A stretch of DNA of 64,000 nucleotides from Gammaproteobacteria bacterium (lineage in GTDB: Bacteria; Pseudomonadota; Gammaproteobacteria; Eutrophobiales; Eutrophobiaceae): positions 1,541,118 through 1,605,117 of the forward strand of contig OZ242192.1 in assembly GCA_965205955.1 (NCBI GenBank), read 5' to 3'. Of the stretch, positions 7,645-25,471 are shown piece after piece (position 1 is the stretch's first letter; each line of letters starts with the position of its first letter). The notes under the pieces were generated by a model. The model had not been told where the DNA came from. It saw nothing but the letters and a program-made list of their open reading frames with translations, and ran no database searches. A program made the position numbers and the translations under genes.

Positions 7645-10600
7645 TCAATGTGCGAGATTCTTAATCCCCTGGGTTTCGTTTTCCTGAATTTCGTTTTTGA
7701 TTCTGACAGGTTCCACCACCGGGTTATCCCAGCTTCCGGTAATCGTGTACCGGTGACTCAGCAGTTTATTCAACTGTTTCGGGACGACGTCGAATAATTT
7801 TCCGGCAATGAACAGGCCGGCGCCCACTCCGGTTCCGAGCCCCAGCAGGGTGGCGCCGGCGAGAGGCAGAGTATCGGATATCTTCAAGGTAACAACGGCA
7901 GATTGGTCATAATCTTTGGTCGATAGTCCGGTACGTCCGCTAATTGCTATCTCGGCAGACACCCCCTGCATGATTAGCCCGTCTGTATAGGCGTTGCCGT
8001 GCTCCAGATTGAAACTGCCGTTAATGCTGTTGAAGGCAAACCCCTTGCCGAATATATCGGAAAAATCCAGGGACAGGCGGCGGGGCAGGGTGTGCAGGCT
8101 GAGCAGACCAAATAAACGGCTCGTGGTAGAACTCATATCCAGCAGCTTTCCTCTGCCTATATCTACTTGCATGACACCATCGAGCTTGCTGAGTGAGAAA
8201 TCCATCGGCGTCCCGTCCCAGTTTGCCTCCAAGGCCACAGATAGTTCGCCTTCTTCTATACTGGAATCAGGATAGCCGTATTCATTCAGCATGGCGCCGA
8301 TATCCGCTGCATACATATCGAAATTGAATACGGAGATGGATATATTTTTATCCGGATCTTTATGCCAGGTTCCTGTTCCGCTAATAACCACACTTGCCTT
8401 ACTGAGTGACAATTCTTCAAATTTTATTCCCTTGTCGATCTTGCTGGCCTTGATATCCACCTTGCCGAAATCGATATTATCGTAGATAAGAGTATCGATC
8501 TCTATTGTAAATGCAGGCAGGGAATCCGGGGAAAGATCGATTTTACTCTCCTCATCAGAGGCATTCTTGCTCAAGACAAGACGTTCAATATCGACCGTCG
8601 CCGGTGGCCCCAACGGGGTATCGGGTAGAAATACCTCTCCCCGGACACTCTCGCCACCCAGCCCTATTTTATGACCGTCGGGAACCGAGGAAACAGACAG
8701 TTCAACATTATTGAATTCATTGCCCAGAAAGAAAAGTGTTGCAACATTTATTGCCGCTTCATACTCCTTGAAGCCGGCGGCATCATCTTTATAGTCAGAG
8801 AGTACTTGCAGCCATTTGCTGACATCCAGTGTTTCGATATTTCCTTCAATGCGCAGTTTGCTGTGCCCGCCTGCTGTTTTCCCGGAAGCGGCGGGTATTT
8901 CCTGAGTGGTATCAATAGAGAGATCGGCATGAGCATCATACTGGAAGCGTATATTGCTTATAATGGATTCACCGAATGTGCCGGCAAACAGCATATTTCT
9001 GGTTTCCGCCTCAGTTTTGCCGAGGGGTGCGGGCAAGTCCAGTCCAAGCCCGCGCATATCGGATGCAAGAGAAAAATCGATGCCATTTTGGGTTTTATGC
9101 AATTCCACAATCCATTCGCATTCACCGCTGATGAGATTTTGCAAATCCGGCATTGCCGGGGTAGCGGCGGGATAGGCGGCTATAATCTGATCGGCAATAA
9201 ATGTATTGTCGGCCCTTCCTTGAAGAGTAAACGTAAAAGGCTGATCCTTTCCAACGTGTATACCTGCTTTAACCGGATGAGAGTAGTAGGTCGCATCCAG
9301 ACCGTTTGCGGTGAAGGAGTTTTCAGTGAAGCCAAGGGAGCCGGTTATATTCTGAAGACTGAACCGCGCGTTGTTCAAGCTAAAATCGGCGTCAACCAAT
9401 GCTATCTTGCCGTCCGCGGCGAGCGATCCATCGTTTGTTTTTTTTAATGGTATATCCAGTTCGAGATCGAACTTCATCTCTCCTCCGACGTTGAAATCAG
9501 CAACAGTGTCCAGTGAAAGCGCCTCCGCAAGCGGGCTTTGTTCAATAAACAATGTGAAATCGTGTATATCTCCGAAAAATTTGCTGTCAATCCGCACATG
9601 AGGACGATCAGCGGCGAAATCATCCACGGACAATTGCCCCCGTTCTATTTTTGTCTCATAAATTTTTCCGGCACTGGGAATCACATCGAGACTGCTATTA
9701 CTAACCAACACTTCGGCATCCACTCCGTCAATCGGCGGCCAACCTTCATAATATTCAACCCCGGCATTTTCAACATCGAATACCGCCTTGAATACCCCCT
9801 CCGATTTTACAAAAGGATAATCCGCTGGTCGGCCTCTGAATACCATTCCGGCGGAATTAATCTCCCCCTGGTAAAACAACCGGCTTAGCCACCCCTTGAG
9901 TTTATCCGGCATCTGTGTGGGCAGGTAATCGCTTATCTTTTCCAGTTTAACCTTGCCTGAGGACGCGACAATATCTACAAAAGGCGATGCCTGATCCGCG
10001 TGGAAACTCAAAGAACCCGATAGGTTGATTGGAAAATCCGAGGTGTTTACTTGAAACCGTGGAATTTCAAGCTTGTTGAAAGCATCGAATTTCTTCCAGT
10101 TGAAACGTCCCGTTATTGCAGAAAACCAGATTGGATCATCAAGATAGGAGGGCGCCTCGATGGTGACAAATTCGGAGTCGATAGTAGCCGATATTTGCTC
10201 GGCGTTGCCTGAGAGATTTCCGGACAGGCCGTAAATGGCCGTATTTGTGCCTTTTTCAATAAAGTCGGATTTTGAGAATGTAGCATGATAATTGAAAAGA
10301 TCGGCAGCTTCGCTGCCAGGGAAATGGGAAATGGTAAAATTCTGCAATGCCCCGCCGATGCGGTAATTATTCAAGAAACTACTAATTGCACTATCTTTCC
10401 GGCTAAAAGCCGACATAAAGTCGGTGGCATCTTCAATATTCAAATATTCAAACCAGGCGGAATAGCCGTAATTCTTCTGTTTATCCCGCTGCAATCGAAT
10501 TGCATAATTCGCCTCCGGCCAGGACCTGTTACCGGTTAGCAATTCCCTGGTATCGACATTGATTGACCAGTCGTCCTCATTGACTCGTTTTGCATAAATA

Positions 10601-11496
10601 TCGGCAGTCAGTTTTGGAACAGATAACGCAGTAGCATTCTTTATCATATTCAAATCCCGATAGCTAACCGTGCCGGTCAAATCAGCCAATCCGGCCTGCT
10701 CCCAATTGCTCCAGATTTTGAAACTGGAATCGGTCTGATCAATTTTTAAACCCGCAACGGGCAGAAACCGGTCGAGACGTATATTTTTGGCCGCCAGATA
10801 TATCTTCCCGGACCAGTTTGGTGTCAGCAGATCTCCATTGGCATCCAGTTTTACCTCCAAAAAATCGCCATAGACCCCGGGCAGCTTCGATGAAGCATCG
10901 ATTTGTACCCGATCCCTGTAGGTTTTGATATTCAATGCAACGTCGGCAAAGGCAATTGTATCCCTGCCGAGTTTCTCATCGGTCCAGAGTATTCGGGTAT
11001 CCTGCAGAGTAATGCTATTCTGACTCAGCAGCCATGAGAATAATTCCGGCGCATCGAAATCCTGTCCAGACTGCCCGGGCACTTTCTCATCTGCAATAAT
11101 AAACGCGCCTTCCTTAGTGCGGGTGAGATCCAGATACACCCCGGAAAGAATCAGCTGATCGGATATAATTTTTTTGAAGCGGAGACTTTTTAGCGGATTG
11201 ATATTTATACGCACGCTGTTGAAATGAGAAATAATGCGTTTGTCATCCCTCCCTGGAAATTTTATATCCGATAAAGAAAGCTGGGGCATCCATCCTTGCC
11301 ATCCGATATTTATTTCACTGAAGATGACCGGGTGCCCGATATATTCGCTTACCCGTGCCTGTATCTCATCGCGGTATGTGTCAACCTCGGTCAGCGCCAG
11401 TCGAATAACTGTCGCCGATACCGCCACGGCGAGGATTATTCCCGCAGTCAGATACCAGAGAAAATGATAAATGCGCTTAAAAAAATGCTTTAACAT
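7645..11496 (-). CDS. yhdP: AsmA-family outer-membrane biogenesis protein YhdP (TIGR02099-like)
   Basis: 1283 aa, N-terminal TM anchor, length and N-terminus typical of YhdP. Confidence 0.75.
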   Translation of the reverse strand: MLKHFFKRIYHFLWYLTAGIILAVAVSATVIRLALTEVDTYRDEIQARVSEYIGHPVIFSEINIGWQGWMPQLSLSDIKFPGRDDKRIISHFNSVRININPLKSLRFKKIISDQLILSGVYLDLTRTKEGAFIIADEKVPGQSGQDFDAPELFSWLLSQNSITLQDTRILWTDEKLGRDTIAFADVALNIKTYRDRVQIDASSKLPGVYGDFLEVKLDANGDLLTPNWSGKIYLAAKNIRLDRFLPVAGLKIDQTDSSFKIWSNWEQAGLADLTGTVSYRDLNMIKNATALSVPKLTADIYAKRVNEDDWSINVDTRELLTGNRSWPEANYAIRLQRDKQKNYGYSAWFEYLNIEDATDFMSAFSRKDSAISSFLNNYRIGGALQNFTISHFPGSEAADLFNYHATFSKSDFIEKGTNTAIYGLSGNLSGNAEQISATIDSEFVTIEAPSYLDDPIWFSAITGRFNWKKFDAFNKLEIPRFQVNTSDFPINLSGSLSFHADQASPFVDIVASSGKVKLEKISDYLPTQMPDKLKGWLSRLFYQGEINSAGMVFRGRPADYPFVKSEGVFKAVFDVENAGVEYYEGWPPIDGVDAEVLVSNSSLDVIPSAGKIYETKIERGQLSVDDFAADRPHVRIDSKFFGDIHDFTLFIEQSPLAEALSLDTVADFNVGGEMKFDLELDIPLKKTNDGSLAADGKIALVDADFSLNNARFSLQNITGSLGFTENSFTANGLDATYYSHPVKAGIHVGKDQPFTFTLQGRADNTFIADQIIAAYPAATPAMPDLQNLISGECEWIVELHKTQNGIDFSLASDMRGLGLDLPAPLGKTEAETRNMLFAGTFGESIISNIRFQYDAHADLSIDTTQEIPAASGKTAGGHSKLRIEGNIETLDVSKWLQVLSDYKDDAAGFKEYEAAINVATLFFLGNEFNNVELSVSSVPDGHKIGLGGESVRGEVFLPDTPLGPPATVDIERLVLSKNASDEESKIDLSPDSLPAFTIEIDTLIYDNIDFGKVDIKASKIDKGIKFEELSLSKASVVISGTGTWHKDPDKNISISVFNFDMYAADIGAMLNEYGYPDSSIEEGELSVALEANWDGTPMDFSLSKLDGVMQVDIGRGKLLDMSSTTSRLFGLLSLHTLPRRLSLDFSDIFGKGFAFNSINGSFNLEHGNAYTDGLIMQGVSAEIAISGRTGLSTKDYDQSAVVTLKISDTLPLAGATLLGLGTGVGAGLFIAGKLFDVVPKQLNKLLSHRYTITGSWDNPVVEPVRIKNEIQENETQGIKNLAH

Positions 11497-11922
11497 GAAT
11501 ATATTTCAGAGCAGGGCAATAGCATATTGTTCCCGCGGGCACACAGGCTCCGCTTGGAATGAGACCGGCGTATCAATCGATGATTCAAGTTCACTGCGCC
11601 GGTTGACCCACCATCCAGTAATCGTTTTTGAGTTGTTCAACCCCCCGCACAATTCCGCTGCATATTCTACACAAATCGTTTCCATTGATTTCATTATTCC
11701 TTCCGAGTGCAGTGAATTCGCTCATGGTTCTGTTTGAAAGATCTCTCATGCCGCATGCTTCTGCTATTATAGCGGATTGATACAGCGATTTTCGCTCGAT
11801 TATATCGCATTTCGCATCTGAATATCAGTCCATTGCTCAGGCACGGCTTGTGCCGGGAGAAGCGGGTGGATATCGCCTTGTATTCATCAAAAACGGGGGC
11901 GATACGGGTGGGGGATCACGAG

Positions 11923-12024
11923 GTTTCACTTACCCCACGAAACGAATCCCGCTACACTCCACTGGAAGAATGATTGCACAAGTCATATTTTTTTACTTAC
12001 CCTATGTAAAGTGGTTGAAATAAT
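11923..12024 (+). CRISPR. orphan CRISPR repeat (35/36 identical to the array consensus), a 30-nt spacer, then a degenerate repeat
   Basis: 11923-11958 reads gtttcacttaccccacgaaacgaatccCgctacact, one change from consensus. After 30 nt, 11989-12024 (ttttttttacttaccc...) retains about 11/13 of the repeat 5' end. Confidence 0.6.
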
Positions 12025-12038
12025 AATAGATAATTCTA

Positions 12039-12968
12039 ATGTCTCCGATTACAGATGACAGGGTATTAAAGCTTTTTAAGGCAGTGCCTTTTTTTAGTCA
12101 TATTGAAGATGATAAGGCATTGAGGTTTTTAAGAGAGAAGACTGAAAAAATCGTACTGGAAGCAAATTCCATGGTGTTTGATGAAGGTGATATTGGGGAT
12201 TATATGTATCTGATTCTGGAAGGAATGGTGGACGTATTTTTTAATGATGTGCAACCCGGGGGAAGAAGGTTACGAGTCAGTCTTGATACTTTAAAAGAGG
12301 GAAACTATTTTGGGGAGCGGTCTTTGTTGCCGGAAGGGAGTGGCAAGAGAGGGGCAGGGGCGAAAACTTTAACTAAATCAACTTTTTTGAAAATTGGGAA
12401 AGATGATTTTTTGTCCGCTTTGAAAAAGATAGAAATTGCGGGTTCTGCAGGAAAAAATACTCGTGTTAATTTAGATCCTGAAATAGATTTTCAGGTTATA
12501 GATGTGTTGAGGACACATCGGTTTTGTAAAAATATGGAAATGAATGAGATTATTCATTATCAAGGATGGGCTGATCCTGTATTTTTCAGATCTTCTGAAT
12601 ATCTTTTTAAGAAGGGAGATCCGAGTGATTGTCTCTACTTGGTGATAAATGGGATGGTTGGGATTTATTTTGCCGGATATGACAGGGTTGTTCATAATTT
12701 AGCTCAGTATTCTATGGGTGGTTATTTTGGTGAGCAAAGTCTTTTGTCTCATCATCATATTGGGTATGGGAAGAAAAGAAGAAGCGCCTCTGCAAAAGCA
12801 GAGATTAATTCTTTGTTGTTGAGAATTGGGGAAAGTCAGTTTAAAAAGATCTTGTTGCAAGATGAGAAATTGAAGGAAGCTCTTTTGATAGTTGGGGCTA
12901 AACAAAAATATCTGAGGGCGCTGAGATCGAGAGTTGGCAGGGTAGATACTCATAATAATGGTAGTTAA
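12039..12968 (+). CDS. protein with two cyclic-nucleotide-binding (CAP effector) domains and no output domain
   Basis: Two cNMP-binding signatures (GDIGDYMYLILEGMVDV...FGERSLL and GDPSDCLYLVINGMVGIY...FGEQSLL). GC is visibly lower than the flanks. Confidence 0.75.
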   Translation: MSPITDDRVLKLFKAVPFFSHIEDDKALRFLREKTEKIVLEANSMVFDEGDIGDYMYLILEGMVDVFFNDVQPGGRRLRVSLDTLKEGNYFGERSLLPEGSGKRGAGAKTLTKSTFLKIGKDDFLSALKKIEIAGSAGKNTRVNLDPEIDFQVIDVLRTHRFCKNMEMNEIIHYQGWADPVFFRSSEYLFKKGDPSDCLYLVINGMVGIYFAGYDRVVHNLAQYSMGGYFGEQSLLSHHHIGYGKKRRSASAKAEINSLLLRIGESQFKKILLQDEKLKEALLIVGAKQKYLRALRSRVGRVDTHNNGS

Positions 12969-13126
12969 GGGGTGGAGTGGTCAAGCATTTTGAAGTGATT
13001 CTATAGATAGACCAGTCCAACCAAAGAACCGGCACATATACAGCCCTGATGGTTGTACGCCCGCAGAACATGGTGGCGAAATGCAGCAGAGCGCCCCGCA
13101 CGTACTGAGTGAACGTATGCGCGGGC

Positions 13127-13558
13127 GTTTCACTTACCCCACAAAACGAATCCTGCTATACTATTTGTCACTCTCACTTATGCACCCGGCATGTTTCACT
13201 TACCCCACAAAACGAATCCTGCTATACTCCCTACCCCTTTGACTGATGCGGAACTTCTGTTTCACTTACCCCACGAAACGAATCCTGCTACACTAAACCC
13301 CTGGAACGGCCGCCAAGAGTTGCAGTTTCACTTACCCCACGAAACGAATCCTGCTACACTCATGATCCGATCCTCGACGATCCGTTTTGTGTTTCACTTA
13401 CCCCACGAAACGAATCCTGCTACACTGCTCTAACCACTATATCGCAGACCAGCGCGGTTTCACTTACCCCACGAAACGAATCCTGCTACACTCAGCGTCC
13501 AACATTCGTTCGGGCAACAGTTGTTTCACTTACCCCACGAAACGAATCCTGCTACACT
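13127..13558 (+). CRISPR. CRISPR array, 7 x 36-bp repeats (gtttcacttaccccacgaaacgaatcctgctacact) with six 30-nt spacers
   Basis: Exact repeat copies at 13259, 13325, 13391, 13457 and 13523. Repeats at 13127 and 13193 share two identical substitutions (ccacAaaacg, gctaTact). All spacers are unique and 30 nt. Confidence 0.95.
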
Positions 13559-13586
13559 AGGATTCGTCTTGTGGCTTGTTTTTATT
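13535..13586 (+). terminator. hairpin formed by the last repeat plus an inverted copy of its centre, followed by a T-tract (plus-strand intrinsic terminator candidate)
   Basis: ccacgaaacgaatcct / aggattcgtcttgtgg pairs 14 of 16 with an 8-nt loop, then cttgttttta. Confidence 0.45.
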
Positions 13587-13630
13587 GGGAAAATTTGTAT
13601 TTGCAGCCAGAAAAATTGCGAATTGGTCTA

Positions 13631-16600
13631 TCATTTTTCCGGCCCGGGGCAGGGTTTTAGCTTGGTATAAACGGCTTGTGTTTCAGCGCCTGCTTTATTT
13701 TTGAGATATGCCCCCCTTGAGTTAAGTTTTATAATTTGCCACTCGCCAGGTCTTTGGGGATTATCAATCCTTACCCAGTCTCTTTTGCGAAAGCTGGCAA
13801 TGCGCTTTGCGCCGCTTGGTATGTCTTTTTCATATCGAGGATTGAGCGGCTGCTTGCCTGTTGTCGCCTTGCTGCGATAATAAAATGCGTCAGTCTCACG
13901 AATAACTTCTTTTTTCGTTTTGCCCTTCCTGCCGGTTTCTTCATATTCAAAAACATGCGCCACCGCCCATGGATTTTCCTTGCCAAAATAATGCACAGCT
14001 TCCCCGCGCTTGATTCCATGCAGGTTTTTCGGGTCAGAGGGTTGATGAAGCCTGATGATCCGGGTACTGCGCACGTTCTTGTGATACAGGCAATGGTCTT
14101 CATTTTGTTTTAAAAACCAGTCGACCGGAATGCATTCTTCTTCCTTGGTAATCTCCAGTTCAGTAAAGGCAGCTTGCATTGCCTCGCGGATTTTTGTATC
14201 TCTTATTTTATCCAAATCTTTGTATGGCAGCCGGTCAAGCGGCACCCGCTGCAACACCTGCGGTTGCCCGTCTATCTTCCGCAAGCGCAACGGCTCGCGT
14301 TTGGTTTTAGCAACCGTGCTTTTGCTTTTGTTTTTTTTGTCTTCAATATACCAGTCGTCTCGTATAGTCGGAGCCTGCCAATCATTTTGGTCTGCATTCC
14401 ATTCACCGGCGGGGCAGGCTGTGTTGGCATCCAAAACGGGTATGACGGTTTTGTGCGCTTCTTGCCGGCGTCTGTTTCTGTCCCTGGCGTTGTTGTCGAT
14501 ATCCCGCTCCAAACGGGCTATTTTTTTCCAATCTATATTGGAAGCAATGACAATGGCATCCAGCGCATGATTGAATTTCCGAATCGAGTCGTTTTCATCT
14601 ATTTTAATCTCTTCGCCTTCCTTGCCGTATTTGCTGTCACGTATGCGAACCGGCCATTTACCGGTTTTTTGATGCTGCCGCAAAACCCATTTTTGAAAAC
14701 TCATATGCGGAAACCAGATTTTTCTAAAAAAAGCCGTCTCCCCGGCGCGGATATGGGGAAAAAGCTCGTTATCATCGTGATTTCGTCCCGTCTTTTCAGC
14801 CAGCACAGAACGCAATAATTTTGTGCCAAACATAGTTTGCCCCGCACCCGCCAGCATATCCTCGGGGAGACGGAACTCCCCATTTTGCAAGCGTTTTTCA
14901 ATATAGGCCGCCTTGTCAGGGTTGTTTTGGCGCAAATTATTTAAAACATTTTTATCGGGGGATAAAGAGAGATGTTTCCATTTTTCTATATTGCAGAGAT
15001 CATGCATTGCAACCTTGTTCAAGGCGGTATTGCCTCCGCCTGATTTTTTGGGAAACAGATGATCGGTGTGAATGTTGTATCCAAGCTGTTGGCCGCATTT
15101 GAAGCATAGCCCGCCTTGCTCTTCGGCCAATTCCTCTTTGTCTGAATCTCTTTTGCTTTGATAGCGTACCTTGTTTTTGAATTGGCGGCCTTCGGCAGCG
15201 GATAGGGCGGCAATATCGAAGCGCGCGCTTTCAATGCCAAAATGTGTGGCGTTTTCGAGCGTTGCGCCGTGCCTTCCGAGTATTTTTTCAACTTCTTTGA
15301 CGCAGCGTGTGATTTTTTGCTGCAAAGAGGGTGGGGCATCTGACAATACGGCCTCACTTCGGGCATTGATGCGTTGCCAATCATCGGTATTTGTGCCGTC
15401 TGGCCGGCGCAACAATTCCAGCCTTTTCTGTAAATGGTGGATACACATACTGGCACGACCGCCCATCGTGCCGGCGGCAATATCGCGCAAAATTTCTTTT
15501 TTGCTTTTACCGGTTTTCTCGCCATTTTCCTTTGGCACGCTTGGATTGCGGGGGAAGGTAAAAAAAGCATTCCAGTGTTCTTCCTTGATTATTTCATTTT
15601 TTTCTTTGGCTTCAAAATCAACACAGGCCAGCAATTCGTTAATCTCATCATTTGTATATTTGCGTTCAATCAGGTCATCGCCTCTTTTTTCACCTTTCAT
15701 GCTCTTAATCTGCCGTGCTTCCGCCTCAAAAACTATCTTGCGTAGATCGCCCCGGCCTCGTTTGGCAACGTTCTTGCCACAACGCTCCCCGCTGGTTGTC
15801 CGCACCGCGCATTTTTTCATTTTACGATTGGCAAAACGCTTTTTTCGGTATTCGTGCCCGATGATCGCCGGCGCCTGTTTTTTCCAGCCCTCTTTGATGG
15901 TCGCCTCGGTTTCTCCGGTCTTTTGCGCCAACACTTTGGCTTTTTCAATAACAGCCTCATCCGCAAAGGCTTCATCCATTCGCTCGTGCAGTTCCTCAAG
16001 CATTGCTTCACGATGGCGATTTTTATGTGGACGGTAAAGTTCTCCTTTCTTGTATAATTCTTCTCCCGACTTTAACCCCAACATAACCAGAATGTATTCA
16101 CTAATGTCTTTTCTTGCCTTTTCATTTTGAGGCGGTTTGCCCAGGCAGGCTTCGATGCGTTCATCTATCCAATCAGAAATTTGGTCACTATCAGCGTCTT
16201 CTATAATGCCTTCAATAGTGCCACGTTGGGCGTAAGCCTCGTCAAGTTGCGGGCTTGCCCCTTTCTTTTCCAGCGTTGTAATTTTCTTGAGGGTCTCGCT
16301 GTATATACCCAAGCATGAGCATTCTGCTGCAAGCCAGTGTATAATTTCAGATGGTTGGTCTGTGGCATCGCCATGTTCGGCAACTTCTATCGCACATTTG
16401 CAATTTTCTTCATCTTTCTTGAATTTTTTCACTGCACTTGCATCCGCGCCTTTTTTGGGGTTTTTGGGTGTGCGCTTATTACGCTTGACAGGTGCGCCAC
16501 TGAACATTAAAAATTCATCAATTCGGCGGACCGTAGGTGTGGCGTTGCCTTTATCGTCTGCCAGAATTTCGGAAATAGAGGCATAATCCCAGCCGCGAAA

Positions 16601-16918
16601 ATGCGCCAGCGCATACAGCCGATTGCCGATGAATTTTTTATCGTCTTTGCTGATTTTGCCGCCGCCACCCTTGCGCCATTCACCGCGCGGCTCAATGCCC
16701 ATGCCTTTGAGAAAGGCTTTAAAATCGCGGAGGCGTTTTCTTTTGCTGTCTTTACTGCGTCGCGCACTGCGGTTTTGGCGTCTTGTGCTCAGGTCGCCTG
16801 TTAATTGCTGGTGCTTAATGACAGCAAAATCCAGCACATCATTCTTGTCATTCAGTAGCGCTATTCCTGAATAACCATATCCAAAATCAATGCCGACACG
16901 AAACTCGTTCAGGGGCAT
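13631..16918 (-). CDS. cas9: Cas9-like RNA-guided nuclease (divergent, type II-C-sized)
   Basis: RuvC-I (VGIDFGYGYSGIALL), Arg-rich bridge helix (RRQNRSARRSKDSKRKRLR), RuvC-II (HFGIESARFDI), HNH (CFKCGQQ..IHTDHLFP..NTALNKVAMHDLCN) and RuvC-III (KFNHALDAIVIA) are all present in Cas9 order. It is adjacent to the 36-bp-repeat array. Confidence 0.8.
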   Translation of the reverse strand: MPLNEFRVGIDFGYGYSGIALLNDKNDVLDFAVIKHQQLTGDLSTRRQNRSARRSKDSKRKRLRDFKAFLKGMGIEPRGEWRKGGGGKISKDDKKFIGNRLYALAHFRGWDYASISEILADDKGNATPTVRRIDEFLMFSGAPVKRNKRTPKNPKKGADASAVKKFKKDEENCKCAIEVAEHGDATDQPSEIIHWLAAECSCLGIYSETLKKITTLEKKGASPQLDEAYAQRGTIEGIIEDADSDQISDWIDERIEACLGKPPQNEKARKDISEYILVMLGLKSGEELYKKGELYRPHKNRHREAMLEELHERMDEAFADEAVIEKAKVLAQKTGETEATIKEGWKKQAPAIIGHEYRKKRFANRKMKKCAVRTTSGERCGKNVAKRGRGDLRKIVFEAEARQIKSMKGEKRGDDLIERKYTNDEINELLACVDFEAKEKNEIIKEEHWNAFFTFPRNPSVPKENGEKTGKSKKEILRDIAAGTMGGRASMCIHHLQKRLELLRRPDGTNTDDWQRINARSEAVLSDAPPSLQQKITRCVKEVEKILGRHGATLENATHFGIESARFDIAALSAAEGRQFKNKVRYQSKRDSDKEELAEEQGGLCFKCGQQLGYNIHTDHLFPKKSGGGNTALNKVAMHDLCNIEKWKHLSLSPDKNVLNNLRQNNPDKAAYIEKRLQNGEFRLPEDMLAGAGQTMFGTKLLRSVLAEKTGRNHDDNELFPHIRAGETAFFRKIWFPHMSFQKWVLRQHQKTGKWPVRIRDSKYGKEGEEIKIDENDSIRKFNHALDAIVIASNIDWKKIARLERDIDNNARDRNRRRQEAHKTVIPVLDANTACPAGEWNADQNDWQAPTIRDDWYIEDKKNKSKSTVAKTKREPLRLRKIDGQPQVLQRVPLDRLPYKDLDKIRDTKIREAMQAAFTELEITKEEECIPVDWFLKQNEDHCLYHKNVRSTRIIRLHQPSDPKNLHGIKRGEAVHYFGKENPWAVAHVFEYEETGRKGKTKKEVIRETDAFYYRSKATTGKQPLNPRYEKDIPSGAKRIASFRKRDWVRIDNPQRPGEWQIIKLNSRGAYLKNKAGAETQAVYTKLKPCPGPEK

Positions 16919-17164
16919 ATCGTCCTCTCTTGGTTATTAAGTCTCTCCCTAACCCTTAAATGGAAACATTCACGTACTAGAGCTTGCCACTGGGAGAGAA
17001 TAAGGCAGGTAGACCAGTGAGCGCTTCCTGGGATTTTTTTCACTTACCAACATCACGGTATTATAGGCTCGGCAAGTTGTCAAGCCTCTCAAACATTCAG
17101 CAATTCCCCCGCATCCGGGTGCAGTCATTTGACATGCAGGCACAGGCTGGCTAGACTTTTCGTT

Positions 17165-17350
17165 ATTGGGTGCTCGGACGCTTTTCGGCGAAAGAGTTAA
17201 ACGGGAAGCAGGTGCGTCATCGACAAAGCCTGCGCTGCCCCCGCAACGGTAGATGAGTCAAGTTCAATTATTTGCGCCACTGTGCATGGCATGGGAAGGC
17301 GATTGAACGGATGCGCAGCATCACTCATAAGCCCGGAGACCGGCCCGATA
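17165..17350 (+). promoter_or_regulatory. cobalamin (AdoCbl) riboswitch
   Basis: GGGAAGCAGGTGCG...GCTGCCCCCGCAACGGTAGA...GCCACTG...GGGAAGG core and the B12-box AGCCCGGAGACCGGCC sit immediately upstream of the TonB receptor. Confidence 0.8.
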
Positions 17351-17362
17351 ATCATTTATTGA

Positions 17363-19288
17363 ATGATTACGGAGGGTATTCATCTTATGAGCTATTGTTC
17401 ATACGGTTTTATCTTGAAAATAAGCGCCGCCGCCTGTTTGTTTCCGGCTTTTACGGCCCTCGCGGAGCAAAGAGAGGCAACGGAGGTTATGGTTGTTACC
17501 GCTTCTCAGCGGGCATTGCCGAGATCATCAATCGGTTCTGCGATCACTGTGATTACCGCCGACGATATTCAAAGGCGCGGGGGTATTTATGCCGCGGATA
17601 TGCTCCGGCAGGTCCCCGGGTTTGCGCTCAGCCGCAGCGGCACTTTTGGCACGGTGACCAATGCGCGTGTGCGCGGTGCGGAAGGCAATCATACCCAGGT
17701 ATTGATCGATGGTATCGAGGCCAATGATCCTTCCACCGATTCGGCGTTTAATTTTGGTTCTCTAACTCTGGATAATGTGGAGCGCATAGAAATTATTCGC
17801 GGCCCGCAAAGCGCATTGTCCGGCAGTGATGCGATAGGGGCAGTGGTGCATATTATTACCCGCAGGGGGCAGGGCGCGTTTTCTTTACGGGGAAATATCG
17901 AGGGTGGGGCATTCGATACGGTGAAAACGTCGATAGGCAGTGCCGCCGGCAATGAATATATCAATTATAATATAAATGCCGAGGTATTGAGCACCAATGG
18001 CATCAATGTCGCCAGGACCGGCACGGAGGATGACGGTCATCACAATCGTACCTATGATCTCAAGCTGGGGATTGACCCGTCCGATATTCTGAATCTGGAT
18101 TTTATTGTCCGGCATGTCAATACGGATACGGATACGGATCCGCAGCCGTTTCCATCTCCTGTTATTACCGATGCCCCGGGCAATAAAACGGCTATAGAGC
18201 GGACTTATTTGAAAGGCGGGCTGGGTCTTTCATTATTGGACGGACGCTGGCAACATGGGTTGAGCGTCGCCTCGACCGGCACACGCAATCAATTCGAGTC
18301 CAGCAACTTCGGGCGCTCATTCAACAACGGCAGACGGGTGAAGTATGCCTATAAAAGCAATTTCAATTTCGATACGCCCGGTATTCACACTTCCCGTCAT
18401 GCCTCGTTTCTATTCGAATATCAGGATGAGACTGCCCGGGGCAGCTTTGTTGGCGGTCGATCCAGGGTAGGGTTTATCTCCAGGAGTTATGCCGGCGAAT
18501 ATCATACCGGGTTGTATGATCTTCTGTTTGTCACTGCGGGCATACGCTTCGATGATAATGAGTTCTTCGATAACGCCGCAACCTATCGCGTTGCCAGCGC
18601 ATATAAGTTTCGCGCAAGCGATATGCGTCTGCATGCCAGCTACGGCAAGGGGATTAAAAACCCGACTATTAGCGAATTATTCGGCAATTTTCCAACCTTC
18701 AGCGGGAACCCGGATTTACAGCCGGAAAGTTCGATAGGATGGGACGCGGGCATTGAAATGGTATGGATGGATGGCCGCCTGCTGGTCGATGCTACGTATT
18801 TCAATAATGCGATCACCGATCAAATCACCGGGTTTGTTTTCTCAGGCGGCAATACGGTTGCCAATAATTCTTCGACAAACCATATTTACGGGCTTGAAAC
18901 AACTTTGGATTACGTCTGGAACCCAAAGCTGACACTCTCCGGCGTTTATACGTATACGGGTGCCAATGATCAGGAATTAATTCGCCGCGCCCGGCATATC
19001 GCTTCATTCAATCTGAATTATTCGTTTCTCGATAACAGGGCGAATATCAATCTGGGAGTCCAGTACAACGGCGAGCAGGAGGATTATATATTTGGCAACC
19101 GGCGAACCCGAACCACGCTGGATGCTTTTACATTGGTGAATGTAAATGCAAGCTATCGGATTAACAATGCAGTGAGCGTGTATGCCAGGGTGGAAAATAT
19201 ATTCGATGATGACTATGAAGAAGTATACAGTTATCGCGCCCCGGGGATTGGCGGCTTTGCCGGTATAAAGCTGAATTTAAATCCATGA
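17363..19288 (+). CDS. btuB: TonB-dependent outer-membrane receptor, BtuB-like
   Basis: Signal peptide, TonB box (EVMVVTAS), plug and barrel domains, C-terminal aromatic residue. Follows the B12 riboswitch. Confidence 0.85.
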   Translation: MITEGIHLMSYCSYGFILKISAAACLFPAFTALAEQREATEVMVVTASQRALPRSSIGSAITVITADDIQRRGGIYAADMLRQVPGFALSRSGTFGTVTNARVRGAEGNHTQVLIDGIEANDPSTDSAFNFGSLTLDNVERIEIIRGPQSALSGSDAIGAVVHIITRRGQGAFSLRGNIEGGAFDTVKTSIGSAAGNEYINYNINAEVLSTNGINVARTGTEDDGHHNRTYDLKLGIDPSDILNLDFIVRHVNTDTDTDPQPFPSPVITDAPGNKTAIERTYLKGGLGLSLLDGRWQHGLSVASTGTRNQFESSNFGRSFNNGRRVKYAYKSNFNFDTPGIHTSRHASFLFEYQDETARGSFVGGRSRVGFISRSYAGEYHTGLYDLLFVTAGIRFDDNEFFDNAATYRVASAYKFRASDMRLHASYGKGIKNPTISELFGNFPTFSGNPDLQPESSIGWDAGIEMVWMDGRLLVDATYFNNAITDQITGFVFSGGNTVANNSSTNHIYGLETTLDYVWNPKLTLSGVYTYTGANDQELIRRARHIASFNLNYSFLDNRANINLGVQYNGEQEDYIFGNRRTRTTLDAFTLVNVNASYRINNAVSVYARVENIFDDDYEEVYSYRAPGIGGFAGIKLNLNP

Positions 19289-24301: not shown

Positions 24302-25471
24302 TCATGCATCCCAATCATCCCTTTCGGAAAACAGTTTTTTTGTTATTTCCCTGCGCTGCTGCGCCTCCAGAGACAGTGTTGCCACCGGGCGCGCCTCCAG
24401 ACGGCGGATGCCGATTTCTTCGCCGGTTTCTTCGCAATAGCCATAGCTGCCGTCTTGAATGCGCAATAATGCGGCCTCGATTTTCTTTAATAATTTCCGC
24501 TCCCGGTCACGAGTACGCAATTCGAGCCCGAATTCTGTTTCCTTGGTGGCGCGATCAGAGGGATCGGCAAAATTAGGGGCATCTTCCTTCATGTGACTGA
24601 CAGTCTGCTCTATCTCTTCTACGAGTTCGCGTTTCCGGTCCAAGAGGATTTGTTTGAAATGCTCCAGTTGCTTGGGGCTCATGTACTCCTCATTCTTTTT
24701 TTCCTGATACGGCATGCGTTTCTTTTTAACGGGTGCCACGCGCGCCCTGGCAACGGATGTTTTATCTGTCTTTGTTATTTTTCTTAGCGTCTTTGCCGCC
24801 TTTTTCTTCGTGAGTGCTTTTTTGGCTGCCTTTTTCTTCGCGAGTGCTTTTTTGGCTGCCTTTTTCTTCGCGAGTGCTTTTTTGGCCGCCTTTTTCTTCG
24901 CGAGTGCTTTTTTGGCTGCCTTTTTCTTCGCGAGTGCTTTTTTAGCTGCTTTTTTCTTCGCGAGTGCTTTTTTCTTCGCGAGTGCTTTTTTGGCCGCCTT
25001 TTTCTTGACGGATGCTTTTTTAGCCGTCTTTTTCTTGACGGATGCTTTTTTGGCCGTCTTTTTCTTGACGGGTGCTTTTTTGGCCGCCTTTTTCTTGACG
25101 GGTGCTTTTTTGGCCGCCTTTTTCTTGACGGATGCTTTTTTGGCCGCCTTTTTCTTGACGGATGCTTTTTTGGCTGTCTTTTTCTTGACGGGTGCTTTTT
25201 TGGCTGTCTTTTTCTTGACGGGTGCTTTTTTGGCTGTCTTTTTCTTGACGGATGCTTTTTTGGCTGTCTTTTTCTTGACGGATGCTTTTTTGGCCGCCTT
25301 TTTCTTCGCAGATACCTTTTTGGCCACTTTCTTTTTCGATACCTTCTTTTTGGCCGCGGTCTTCCCGGCTGCTTTCTTCTTCGCAACCCGGCTCCCCGTG
25401 GTTTTACTGCTGGAAACTATTTTCTTCTTTTTGACGATCTTTTTAGCAACCTTCTTTTTTTTTGCTGGCAT
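24302..25471 (-). CDS. dksA: DksA-family RNA polymerase-binding protein fused to a ~250-aa lysine/alanine-rich histone-H1-like N-terminal repeat region
   Basis: The C-terminal 130 aa align to DksA (PYQEKKNEEYM..., FGLELRTRDRERKLLKKIE, GYCEETGEEIGIRRLEARP). The N-terminus is about 25 copies of a 10-aa KKKxAKKAxV unit in the same frame. An internal Met (MPYQEKK) is an alternative start. Confidence 0.7.
   Translation of the reverse strand: MPAKKKKVAKKIVKKKKIVSSSKTTGSRVAKKKAAGKTAAKKKVSKKKVAKKVSAKKKAAKKASVKKKTAKKASVKKKTAKKAPVKKKTAKKAPVKKKTAKKASVKKKAAKKASVKKKAAKKAPVKKKAAKKAPVKKKTAKKASVKKKTAKKASVKKKAAKKALAKKKALAKKKAAKKALAKKKAAKKALAKKKAAKKALAKKKAAKKALAKKKAAKKALTKKKAAKTLRKITKTDKTSVARARVAPVKKKRMPYQEKKNEEYMSPKQLEHFKQILLDRKRELVEEIEQTVSHMKEDAPNFADPSDRATKETEFGLELRTRDRERKLLKKIEAALLRIQDGSYGYCEETGEEIGIRRLEARPVATLSLEAQQRREITKKLFSERDDWDA
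24796..25330. repeat. about eighteen tandem 30-bp direct repeats in two subfamilies, coding for the K/A-rich region
   Basis: The unit cgagtgcttttttggc(t/c)gcctttttcttcg alternates with gacgg(a/g)tgcttttttggc(c/t)g(c/t)ctttttcttg. Confidence 0.9.

What the first reader, a model, noticed from the sequence alone, without database searches (positions are those of the whole stretch)
11900..12030. No canonical tracrRNA found; candidates are repeat-derived fragments
Type II effectors need a tracrRNA with an anti-repeat, and no classical anti-repeat followed by a terminator lies beside cas9. Three repeat-derived pieces exist.
- A nearly intact orphan repeat at 11923-11958 (35/36). Read from the strand opposite to the array, it would give a perfect anti-repeat.
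- It is followed after 30 nt by a weak hairpin (atgatt-gcaca-agtcat) and a T9 tract.
- An 11-nt repeat 5'-end match (tttcacttacc, 17038-17048) lies in the cas9 5' leader, just downstream of a perfect TATAAT on the cas9 strand. This would put ggtaagtgaaa at the 5' end of the cas9 mRNA.

Either the tracrRNA is unconventional, or it is encoded elsewhere, or the system is tracr-independent.
Basis: partly seen in the sequence, partly recalled or inferred. Interest (0 to 1): 0.6.

Follow-up and report, generated by a model that had tools for sequence, protein, structure and literature searches.

The report
tracrRNA hidden in the cas9 leader

Summary
All three repeat-derived pieces exist at the stated coordinates. 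Only the third is part of a tracrRNA.

- **tracrRNA.** The 11-nt GGTAAGTGAAA (17048-17038, minus strand) lies 11 nt after a TATAAT. It complements crRNA-repeat positions 2-12.
- **Family feature.** It heads a ~135-nt leader (17053-16919) that recurs 5' of cas9, on the same strand, in at least eight relatives of this rare Cas9 family (about 34-39% identity where measured).
- **Cognate pairing.** In each locus with an array, the leader starts with an anti-repeat matching that locus's own repeat.
- **Independent test.** A covariance model built from relatives alone finds the window leader (27.7 bits, E 1.7e-4 to 7e-3), with helices kept by compensatory changes.
- **Conservation.** The leader is invariant in four strains (0/135 variable columns; cas9 4.8%).
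- **Terminator.** At least six relatives end this RNA with a terminator before cas9. This lineage has none, so the tracrRNA is continuous with the cas9 mRNA.
- **Orphan repeat.** The repeat at 11923-11958 is followed by a 31-nt spacer and a half-degenerate repeat whose tail varies between strains. It is best read as a fossil array end.
- **Missed element.** An inverted partial repeat (13559-13574) forms a hairpin with the last repeat.

No expression data exist.

The parts
16919..17053 (-). Proposed tracrRNA, which is also the cas9 5' leader. The inferred start is near 17053 and it runs to the cas9 ATG with no terminator of its own.
   Evidence: - Model R2, built from relatives only, matches 16946-17056 (-) at 27.7 bits: E 0.007 over 280 kb, and E 1.7e-4 over 7 kb with filters off, where the next hit scores 9.5 bits.
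- 0/135 columns vary among 4 strains.
- No terminator-like site on the minus strand here.
17038..17048 (-). Anti-repeat GGUAAGUGAAA. It pairs with crRNA-repeat positions 2-12, and G1 faces an A.
   Evidence: - Exact 11-mer, expected 0.02 per window.
- The minimum-energy dimer with a model crRNA uses repeat positions 2-12.
- Cognate leader/repeat duplexes are the most stable in a 5x5 matrix.
17060..17065 (-). Perfect -10 hexamer TATAAT, 11 nt upstream of the anti-repeat. No well-spaced -35.
   Evidence: Read from the sequence. Relatives have promoter-like sites at the same place, e.g. L004 TTGACA-16-TACAAT, 11/12.
13631..16918 (-). cas9-like gene, 1095 aa, with RuvC and HNH motifs intact.
   Evidence: - Pfam RRXRR.
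- NCBIfam Cas9d 122.5 bits, below the 375 cutoff, and IscB 55.6 bits.
- Best solved relatives are Cas9d structures.
- dN/dS 0.22-0.45 among 4 strains.
13127..13558 (+). CRISPR array: 7 repeats of 36 nt and 6 spacers of 30 nt. crRNA sense is the + strand, convergent with cas9. Each repeat ends in TGCTA(C/T)ACT, which resembles an extended -10.
   Evidence: [quoted passage not shown]
13559..13590 (+). Inverted partial repeat (13559-13574, complementary to repeat positions 13-28) followed by CTTGTTTTTATT. It forms a 16-bp hairpin with the last repeat. Probably the array terminator, or a vestigial anti-repeat.
   Evidence: -: unique match.
- -21.7 kcal/mol, z -4.3.
- 3 of its 16 positions differ among the strains (the automatic column count gave 2).
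- Relative L005 has a terminator hairpin at the same place.
11923..12011 (+). Orphan unit: repeat (11923-11958, 35/36), 31-nt spacer-like stretch (11959-11989), and a degenerate half repeat (11990-12011, 16/22). Read as a fossil array end.
   Evidence: -.
- The repeat is invariant (0/36), but the stretch 11959-12038 has 6/80 variable columns.
- No match of the spacer elsewhere.
12966..12996 (+). Possible vestige of a second, Francisella-like tracrRNA: GGGGTGGAGTGG (can pair with repeat positions 4-14, with wobbles and a bulge) followed by TCAAGCATTTTGAA.
   Evidence: - A 12-mer is shared with stem-loop 1 of the relatives' array-side tracrRNA (local alignment z 4.3-4.8).
- Against: model R1 does not match it, and the minimum-energy dimer does not use it.
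- Five variable columns and an indel lie directly 3' of it.
12039..12968 (+). Gene for a protein with two cyclic-nucleotide-binding domains. It is a low-GC island between the orphan unit and the array.
   Evidence: Pfam cNMP_binding E 1.7e-32. GC 0.35-0.41 against 0.46-0.51 in the flanks.

Best explanation
**What it is.** The locus is a minimal type II system: a leader RNA, cas9 and an array, with no cas1, cas2 or cas4 in the window. It belongs to a rare Cas9 clade whose nearest described relatives are Cas9d and IscB.

**The tracrRNA.** It is the RNA that starts about 7 nt after the TATAAT at 17065-17060 on the cas9 strand.
- Its 5' end carries an 11-nt anti-repeat (17048-17038). This pairs with positions 2-12 of the crRNA repeat, the part directly 3' of the spacer.
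- An A-run follows, then a ~95-nt scaffold of nested helices.

**The crRNAs.** They are made from the + strand, convergent with cas9. They probably start at the TGCTA(C/T)ACT motif at the end of each repeat. Read-through probably stops at the hairpin that the last repeat forms with the inverted partial repeat at 13559-13574 plus its U-run.

**The terminator.** In relatives the leader RNA ends in its own terminator 25-50 nt before the cas9 start. In this lineage that terminator is absent. The tracrRNA is therefore made as the 5' part of the cas9 mRNA, and is either used as such or released by processing.

**The orphan repeat.** The repeat at 11923-11958, with its 31-nt spacer and degenerate half repeat, is a fossil end of an array and is not the tracrRNA.

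**Shown:** homology of the leader, its conservation, and co-variation of anti-repeat with repeat.
**Inferred:** transcription start, crRNA promoters, termination, binding to Cas9, and lack of function of the orphan.
For: 1. **Relatives carry the same RNA.** L003, L004, L005 and L007 have, upstream of cas9 on the same strand, a promoter, a 14-18-nt complement of the 5' end of their own repeat, an A-run, GCCCRAGG and a scaffold. A terminator closes the RNA in at least six relatives (L002, L003, L004, L005, L007, L013). L008 has TATAAT-7 nt-GAGTGTAAAA, matching its repeat GTTTTACACTC.
2. **Cognate pairing.** Leader/repeat duplexes are most stable for the locus's own repeat. The diagonal is -16.6 to -25.3 kcal/mol. 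The window leader with foreign repeats gives -7.7 to -10.9. Foreign leaders with the window repeat give about -3.
3. **Independent model test.** Model R2, built without the window, hits 16946-17056 (-) over its full length at 27.7 bits. It also hits the leaders of two members fetched afterwards: L012 at 47 bits, E 3.5e-8, and L013 at 25.9 bits, E 1e-3.
4. **Structural co-variation.** 93.6% of cells are paired against 78.6% in shuffles (0/500). Twelve pairs change on both sides against 3.4 in shuffles. Slid controls give 27-42%. In the window G-C becomes A-U and U-A becomes A-U.
5. **Conservation.** The leader has 0/135 variable columns in four strains. cas9 has 4.8% and its neighbours 1.3-4.4%. 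cas9 dS is 0.04-0.06.
6. **The system is maintained.** cas9 dN/dS is 0.22-0.45. The four strains carry 23 distinct spacers and share none.
7. **A short duplex can suffice.** The NsCas9d guide also has a G-A mismatch at the first repeat position. It tolerates removal of 10 bp from the repeat:anti-repeat stem (PMC12339737).
8. **Orphan tail.** It is variable (6/80) and only about 35 nt long.
Against: - No expression data exist. The transcription start, the ends of the RNA and its binding to Cas9 are all inferred.
- The anti-repeat is only 11 nt. The leader alone does not fold better than shuffles (z +0.9 and -0.2).
- The R2 score in the window is modest (27.7 bits) and the model's E-values are rough.
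- The alignment used for pair counts was fitted to the model.
- The window promoter has no well-spaced -35.
- There is no terminator, so a discrete small RNA is not assured.
- The antisense strand of the orphan repeat would give a far more stable duplex with the crRNA (ddG -48 against -11 kcal/mol). The orphan repeat is invariant in four strains (0/36).
- Spacer turnover without cas1 or cas2 in 64 kb is unexplained.
Confidence: 0.72

Rival explanations
1. The antisense strand of the orphan repeat (11958-11923, minus strand, plus its tail towards 11800) is the tracrRNA, or at least the partner for RNase III processing of the pre-crRNA.
For: - It gives a 36-bp duplex (35 Watson-Crick pairs and one G-U) with every repeat. 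ddG is -48 kcal/mol, by far the strongest of all candidates.
- The orphan repeat is invariant in four strains, and only 1 column varies in the ~110 nt to its left.
- The tail contains hairpins; fold z is -1.6.
Against: - No counterpart exists in any relative, whereas the leader RNA is family-wide.
- No convincing promoter lies just upstream. The nearest is a 9/12 site 68 nt away. No terminator follows, and the tail runs into the promoter of a small ORF.
- The orphan is followed by a spacer-length stretch and a degenerate repeat, as at an array end.
- 0 of 36 variable columns is not significant at the local rate of 2-4%.
Confidence: 0.1
2. The orphan repeat read on the + strand is the anti-repeat, followed by the weak hairpin and the T tract. 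The crRNAs would then be transcribed from the minus strand.
For: - It has an anti-repeat, a hairpin (11970-11986) and a T7 run in the canonical order.
- The variant first repeat lies at the end of the array far from cas9, which under the usual rule would place the leader next to cas9.
Against: - Minus-strand crRNAs would expose AGUGUAGCAGG next to the spacer, and the conserved leader has no complement to that.
- The relatives' repeats are oriented by their own tracrRNAs and terminators, and they give + sense here.
- The tail is only ~35 nt, against scaffolds of ~95-120 nt in this family.
- The tail varies between strains, and the T tract itself is interrupted in L010.
Confidence: 0.03
3. The leader is a cis-regulatory 5' UTR of cas9, for example a site where crRNA or a Cas9 complex pairs or binds to tune cas9 expression. 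The real tracrRNA would lie outside the window.
For: - In this lineage the leader has no terminator and is continuous with the mRNA.
- Its anti-repeat can be sequestered by a local hairpin (AGUGA...UCACU).
- Self-repression of the cas promoter by a natural single guide is known in S. pyogenes (from my own knowledge, not checked here).
Against: - At least six relatives end the same RNA in a strong terminator before cas9, that is, as a discrete small RNA.
- The anti-repeat pairs with exactly the repeat segment next to the spacer, as in all Cas9 guides.
- The scaffold helices co-vary, which is more than a pairing site would need.
- Both roles could coexist.
Confidence: 0.1
4. A second tracrRNA of the Francisella (type II-B) kind is still active next to the array. 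It would be either 12964-13130 (+) or the RNA starting at the inverted partial repeat (13559 onward).
For: - Relatives with cas1-cas2-cas4 carry such a second tracrRNA between cas4 and the array. In L007 it resembles Rfam FtrA, a Francisella small RNA (44 bits, E 0.002, below the gathering score of 134).
- The window has a 12-mer of its stem-loop 1 directly after an anti-repeat-like stretch (z 4.3-4.8), then a GC-rich hairpin ending at the U-rich start of the first repeat.
- 13559-13574 sits where the relatives' second tracrRNA lies relative to the array.
Against: - Model R1 of that tracrRNA finds nothing in the window or its three sister strains, even with filters off.
- Minimum-energy dimers do not use the 12969-12980 anti-repeat.
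- Five variable columns and an indel lie directly 3' of the motif.
- The tail after 13574 shows no significant similarity to that tracrRNA (z about 0).
- L008, which shares the window's minimal layout, also lacks it.
Confidence: 0.08

Closest known systems
[quoted passage not shown]
   Same: A small RNA encoded beside cas9. Its 5' anti-repeat pairs with the repeat part of the crRNA next to the spacer and is followed by a structured scaffold. It co-evolves with the repeat. In relatives it has its own promoter and terminator.
   Different: The anti-repeat is only 11 nt here (10-18 nt across the family), not near full repeat length. The RNA lies directly 5' of cas9 on the same strand. In this lineage it has no terminator and is continuous with the cas9 mRNA. 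No Rfam family matches it.
IscB omega-RNA / HEARO RNA (Rfam RF02033), encoded in the 5' UTR of the nuclease gene (PMC9755519)
   Same: The position and strand are the same: a structured guide-scaffold RNA directly in front of the RuvC-HNH nuclease gene. The protein scores against the IscB model (55.6 bits).
   Different: The omega-RNA carries its own guide, whereas here the guide comes from a CRISPR array in trans. No Rfam HEARO match was found at E<=10. The protein is 1095 aa.
Cas9d (type II-D) and its guide RNA (PMC9755519, PMC12339737)
   Same: - Closest solved structures and closest NCBIfam model.
- RRXRR motif.
- Often no cas1 or cas2.
- Large scaffold.
- G-A mismatch at the first repeat position, and tolerance of a short repeat:anti-repeat stem.
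   Different: The score is 122.5 against a cutoff of 375. The protein is 1095-1370 aa instead of ~750-950. In an exhaustive search the family is separated from everything else by a gap: 27 representatives at E<=1e-30, and the next hits, of unknown family, at 1e-15 and weaker. Relatives carry cas1-cas2-cas4 and a Francisella-like second tracrRNA.
Type II-C arrays of N. meningitidis and C. jejuni with promoters inside the repeats (Zhang 2013 via PMC5965381; PMC3737331)
   Same: - 36-nt repeat and 30-nt spacers.
- The repeat ends in TGCTACACT; I recall TGCTACAAT for N. meningitidis (from memory).
- The array is transcribed towards the cas genes.
- The mutated repeat sits at the transcription-upstream end.
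   Different: The promoter function of the repeats is not tested here. The Cas9 is not of the II-C family (no TIGR01865 match).
scaRNA and other orphan-repeat RNAs linked to type II loci (F. novicida; N. meningitidis, PMC13431127; PMC6199352)
   Same: The orphan unit is a repeat-derived element outside the array. It could give an RNA whose degenerate repeat still pairs with the tracrRNA anti-repeat.
   Different: Its spacer-like part varies among strains and matches nothing in the window. No clear promoter-terminator pair was found. No evidence of function.

Membership tests
tracrRNA (type II) | Anti-repeat complementary to the repeat segment adjacent to the spacer, co-varying with the repeat | tested here: met
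   11/11 to repeat positions 2-12. Cognate duplexes are the best in a 5-locus matrix. L008 adds a further repeat type.
tracrRNA (type II) | Encoded within the cas9/CRISPR locus | tested here: met
   Directly 5' of cas9 in the window and in at least 8 relatives from distinct loci.
tracrRNA (type II) | Separate transcription unit with its own promoter and rho-independent terminator | tested here: inconclusive
   A perfect -10 is present. No terminator-like site lies on the minus strand between 17053 and 16919. At least six relatives have both.
tracrRNA (type II) | Expressed, bound by Cas9 and required for interference | not testable with these tools
   No RNA sequencing or biochemistry is available.
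Type II-D (Cas9d) | Effector reaches the NCBIfam Cas9d model (NF049971, cutoff 375 bits) | tested here: not met
   122.5 bits. Relatives score 77-114 bits.
Type II-B | Csx12-type Cas9 with cas1-cas2-cas4 and a Francisella-like tracrRNA | tested here: not met
   No Csx12 Pfam hit. No cas1, cas2 or cas4 in 64 kb. Model R1 finds nothing. Some relatives do have cas1-cas2-cas4 and that tracrRNA.
Type II-C | Cas9 of the Csn1 family (TIGR01865) with cas1-cas2 only | tested here: not met
   No TIGR01865 hit for the window protein at E<=0.01. No cas1 or cas2. The array features resemble II-C.
IscB omega-RNA / HEARO RNA (RF02033) | Match to the Rfam covariance model, with the guide at the RNA's own 5' end | tested here: not met
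   No match at E<=10 in 10.5-18.5 kb, nor at E<=1 in L007 or L009.
scaRNA (for the orphan unit) | Repeat-like RNA outside the array, flanked by a transcription start and a terminator, partly complementary to the tracrRNA | tested here: inconclusive
   By inspection, the degenerate repeat keeps positions 2-12 apart from a C5->U change that would form a G-U pair with the leader anti-repeat. The -10-like CGCTACACT has lost its TG. The tail varies.

The most novel reading that the evidence does not exclude
This Cas9 clade keeps its tracrRNA at the ancestral omega-RNA position, in the 5' leader of the nuclease gene. In the window lineage the terminator has been lost, so one transcript is both tracrRNA and cas9 mRNA. 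Such a locus would be an evolutionary intermediate between IscB with its omega-RNA and canonical Cas9 with a separate tracrRNA. In relatives one CRISPR array would be read through two different tracrRNAs: a leader-type one and a Francisella-type one. In L003 there are also two different Cas9 effectors.
Probability: 0.35. Interest if true: 0.75.

Novelty: new variant of a known kind. Interest (0 to 1): 0.6.

Why it matters
- **Evolution.** The placement and form of the tracrRNA bear on how Cas9 arose from IscB. Here an array-fed Cas9 still carries its scaffold RNA in the 5' leader of its own gene, with a minimal 10-18-nt anti-repeat.
- **Practice.** The result gives a concrete single-guide design for an undescribed family. 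That family has 27 representatives among 1.84 billion protein clusters.
- **Annotation.** tracrRNA finders that look for a long anti-repeat plus a terminator will miss this class.
- **Biology of the relatives.** They hint that one array can serve two tracrRNAs and two effectors.

Tried and rejected
- **Inversion idea.** 13559-13574 (repeat positions 13-28) and 17048-17038 (positions 2-12) are exactly adjacent halves of an anti-repeat on opposite strands either side of cas9. I considered an inversion of 13575-17048 that had split one tracrRNA. I rejected it because relatives have the leader anti-repeat with its own promoter in the same place, so this is the ancestral state.
- **Homology of the tail after 13574 to the Francisella-like tracrRNA.** It looked plausible by eye but is not significant (z about 0).
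- **Francisella-like tracrRNA model R1.** No hit in the window or in L001, L010 or L011.
- **Protospacer search, to fix crRNA orientation and the PAM.** All 22 distinct array spacers against phage genomes gave nothing. Three spacers against IMG/VR gave nothing. There are no self-matches.
- **More relatives from collections.** Genome and metagenome contig scans gave only the already known Candidatus Oxydemutator locus, or nothing.
- **Further fossil repeats.** I looked at 66-nt phase upstream of the array (12995 and 13061). Identity is 10-11 of 36, which is random (by inspection).
- **Literature search** for the relatives' tracrRNA sequence found nothing. Zhang 2013 is not held.

Full report
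**1. The locus**

Features of the locus in order:

| Coordinates | Strand | Feature |
|---|---|---|
| 7645-11496 | - | yhdP |
| 11923-11958 | + | orphan repeat |
| 12039-12968 | + | low-GC gene with two cyclic-nucleotide-binding domains |
| 13127-13558 | + | CRISPR array: 7 repeats of 36 nt, 30-nt spacers |
| 13631-16918 | - | cas9-like gene, 1095 aa |
| 17151-17362 | + | cobalamin riboswitch (101.9 bits) |
| 17363-19288 | + | TonB-dependent receptor gene |

- No cas1, cas2 or cas4 homologue lies in the 64 kb.
- The effector hits only Pfam RRXRR. It scores 122.5 bits on NCBIfam Cas9d (cutoff 375) and 55.6 bits on IscB.
- Its nearest solved relatives are Cas9d structures.

**2. Check of the observation**

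Three corrections are needed.
- The T tract is T7, not T9.
- The orphan is followed after 31 nt by a degenerate half repeat (16/22), so it is a repeat-spacer-repeat unit.
- A fourth piece was missed. AGGATTCGTCTTGTGG at 13559-13574 abuts the last repeat and is the complement of repeat positions 13-28. With the last repeat it forms a hairpin of -21.7 kcal/mol (z -4.3), followed by a U-run.

No long anti-repeat exists elsewhere in the window. Rfam has nothing but the riboswitch.

**3. Relatives**

The protein family is rare.
- A word-indexed search of 5.8 billion proteins found 8 members.
- An exhaustive HMMER search of 1.84 billion representatives found 27 at E<=1e-30, then a gap.

*Sister strains.* Three sister strains share the whole layout: L001, L010 and L011, whose Cas9 proteins fall in the same 90%-identity cluster (96% for L001).
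- The four arrays hold 23 distinct spacers, none shared.
- cas9 has dN/dS of 0.22-0.45. The system is therefore maintained and its arrays turn over.
- The split cas9 of L011 is an A7->A6 change in a homopolymer. This may be an assembly error.

*Distant relatives.* The relatives for which identity was measured are about 34-39% identical and mostly 1300-1370 aa.
- They sit in loci with cas1-cas2-cas4 (L003, L004, L005, L007, L013).
- Or they sit next to a Csx12-type Cas9 (L002, L003).
- Or, like the window, they have only an array (L008).

**4. Two kinds of tracrRNA in the relatives**

*(a) An array-side tracrRNA.*
- Between cas4 and the array, on the strand opposite cas9, L003, L004, L005 and L007 carry a tracrRNA with a two-part anti-repeat...CUCUGUAAUCAUCAAAAAGCAUUUUGAACGGACC...ACGUCUG, hairpins and a terminator.
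- From memory, it resembles the F. novicida tracrRNA.
- In L007 it weakly hits Rfam FtrA, a Francisella small RNA (44 bits, E 0.002, below the gathering score of 134).
- It fixes the crRNA sense of these arrays as GTTTCAGTTGCTGG..., opposite to cas9. [quoted passage not shown]

*(b) A leader RNA.* Directly upstream of the family's cas9, on the cas9 strand, every relative examined carries a second RNA gene. Its parts, in order:
- a promoter-like site;
- a 10-18-nt complement of positions 2 onward of that locus's own repeat;
- an A-run;
- G(C/U)CC(R)AGG;
- a scaffold;
- a strong terminator 25-50 nt before the cas9 start, seen in at least six relatives (L002, L003, L004, L005, L007, L013).

**5. 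The window's cas9 leader is this second RNA**

- **Sequence.** TGAAAAAAATCCCAGG... and ...CCATTTAAGGG align with TGAAAAAAGCCCRAGG... and ...CCATTTGAGGGCGAGCA.
- **Model test.**
  - Covariance model R2 was built from six relatives without the window.
  - It finds 16946-17056 (-) over its full length at 27.7 bits. E is 0.007 over 280 kb.
  - With filters off over 7 kb, E is 1.7e-4 and the runner-up scores 9.5 bits.
  - It then found the leaders of two members fetched afterwards: L012 (47 bits) and L013 (25.9 bits).
- **Co-variation.**
  - Over the seven-sequence alignment the helices are 93.6% paired, against 78.6% in shuffles and 27-42% when slid.
  - Twelve pairs change on both sides.
  - The window contributes A-U for G-C and A-U for U-A. 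It also has a different but equally paired inner hairpin, CACUGG/CCAGUG.
  - Caveat: that alignment was fitted to the model.
- **Cognate anti-repeats.** Anti-repeat and repeat match locus by locus. G1 of the repeat always faces an A, as in the solved NsCas9d guide. That guide also tolerates loss of 10 bp of this stem (PMC12339737).
- **Conservation.** The leader has no variable column among the four strains (0/135), although cas9 has 4.8% and synonymous divergence is 0.04-0.06.

**6. Orientation of the crRNAs**

Three lines agree on + sense, convergent with cas9.
- The repeats are homologous to the relatives' repeats, whose sense is fixed by their tracrRNAs.
- TGCTA(C/T)ACT at the 3' end of each repeat resembles the repeat-embedded promoters of type II-C arrays (PMC5965381).

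The variant first nucleotide sits at the upstream end of the array. It is T1 in three of the four strains and A1 in L005 and L008. [quoted passage not shown]

**7. What differs in this lineage**

- The leader terminator is missing. After the last scaffold helix the sequence runs straight into the ribosome-binding site and the ATG. The tracrRNA is thus made as the 5' part of the cas9 mRNA. Whether it is released is unknown.
- The Francisella-like second tracrRNA is absent.
- A possible vestige lies at 12966-12996. It shares the 12-mer AAGCATTTTGAA, placed right after an anti-repeat-like stretch (z 4.3-4.8). However, it is not used in minimum-energy dimers, and the stretch directly 3' of it varies between strains.
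- The inverted partial repeat at 13559-13574 sits where relative L005 has a terminator hairpin after its last repeat. Three of its 16 positions differ among the strains, while the hairpin is kept. I read it as the array terminator. It would also shield cas9 from antisense read-through.

**8. The orphan repeat**

- On its + strand the tail is ~35 nt with one 6-bp hairpin, and it is the most variable stretch of the locus (6/80).
- On its minus strand it would give a perfect 36-bp duplex. But it has no nearby promoter, no terminator and no counterpart in relatives.
- With its spacer-length gap and degenerate second repeat it looks like the end of an older array. The low-GC cNMP-binding gene now separates it from the live array.
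- A residual role, for example as a scaRNA-like RNA or an RNase III partner, is not excluded.

**9. Verdict**

- The conclusion "no canonical tracrRNA" is literally true but incomplete. The tracrRNA is the cas9 leader RNA, which is unconventional in three ways: an 11-nt anti-repeat, an omega-RNA-like position, and no terminator of its own.
- All functional steps remain inferred from sequence and comparison.

Noticed in passing
L003 10001-20247; L002 1694-13963: The family's cas9 lies next to a Csx12-type (type II-B) Cas9 of 1901-1963 aa. In L003 the two effectors share one cas1-cas2-cas4 module and one array, and two different tracrRNAs are present.
   Followed up: partly
L004 16820-16975, L005 16205-16356, L007 3955-4105 (all minus strand): The Francisella-like tracrRNA is kept, with its upper anti-repeat co-varying with the repeat, in loci where no Csx12 gene is seen within the stretch of up to 10 kb fetched on each side. 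Its role beside the leader tracrRNA is unexplained.
   Followed up: partly
window 13127-13558 and the arrays of L001, L010, L011: Four strains whose cas9 proteins share one 90%-identity cluster (96% for L001) carry 23 distinct spacers and share none. Yet no cas1 or cas2 lies within 64 kb of the window's array. The source of adaptation is unknown. L011 has one spacer duplicated in tandem.
   Followed up: partly
window 12039-12968: A gene for a protein with two cNMP-binding domains and no recognisable output domain forms a low-GC, strongly G-skewed island between the orphan repeat and the array. It is conserved in all four strains.
   Followed up: no
window 17151-17362: A cobalamin riboswitch (Rfam RF00174, 101.9 bits) lies ahead of a TonB-dependent receptor gene. 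It is divergent from the cas9 leader, and the two promoters share about 100 nt.
   Followed up: no
window 15597 (cas9 codon ~441); L011: An A7 run in cas9 is A6 in strain L011, which splits the gene into 442-aa and 635-aa ORFs. This could be an assembly error, a pseudogene or a phase-variable tract.
   Followed up: partly
window 24708-25415: A tandem array of about 20 units with a 30-nt period (60-93% identity). It is probably a repetitive coding region.
   Followed up: no
L005 1-8154: A type V-A-like locus lies upstream of the family's cas9: cas4-cas1-cas2 and an array whose repeat ends in TCTACTGTTGTAGAT. The genome therefore holds two class 2 systems side by side.
   Followed up: no
window 13127; L001, L010, L011 first repeats; L005 17579-17615; L008 14265-14300: The outermost nucleotide of the transcription-upstream repeat is mutated in several lineages: G1->T in three of the four close strains (the window itself keeps G), and G1->A in L005 and L008. 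This suggests new spacers enter at the cas9-proximal end.
   Followed up: partly
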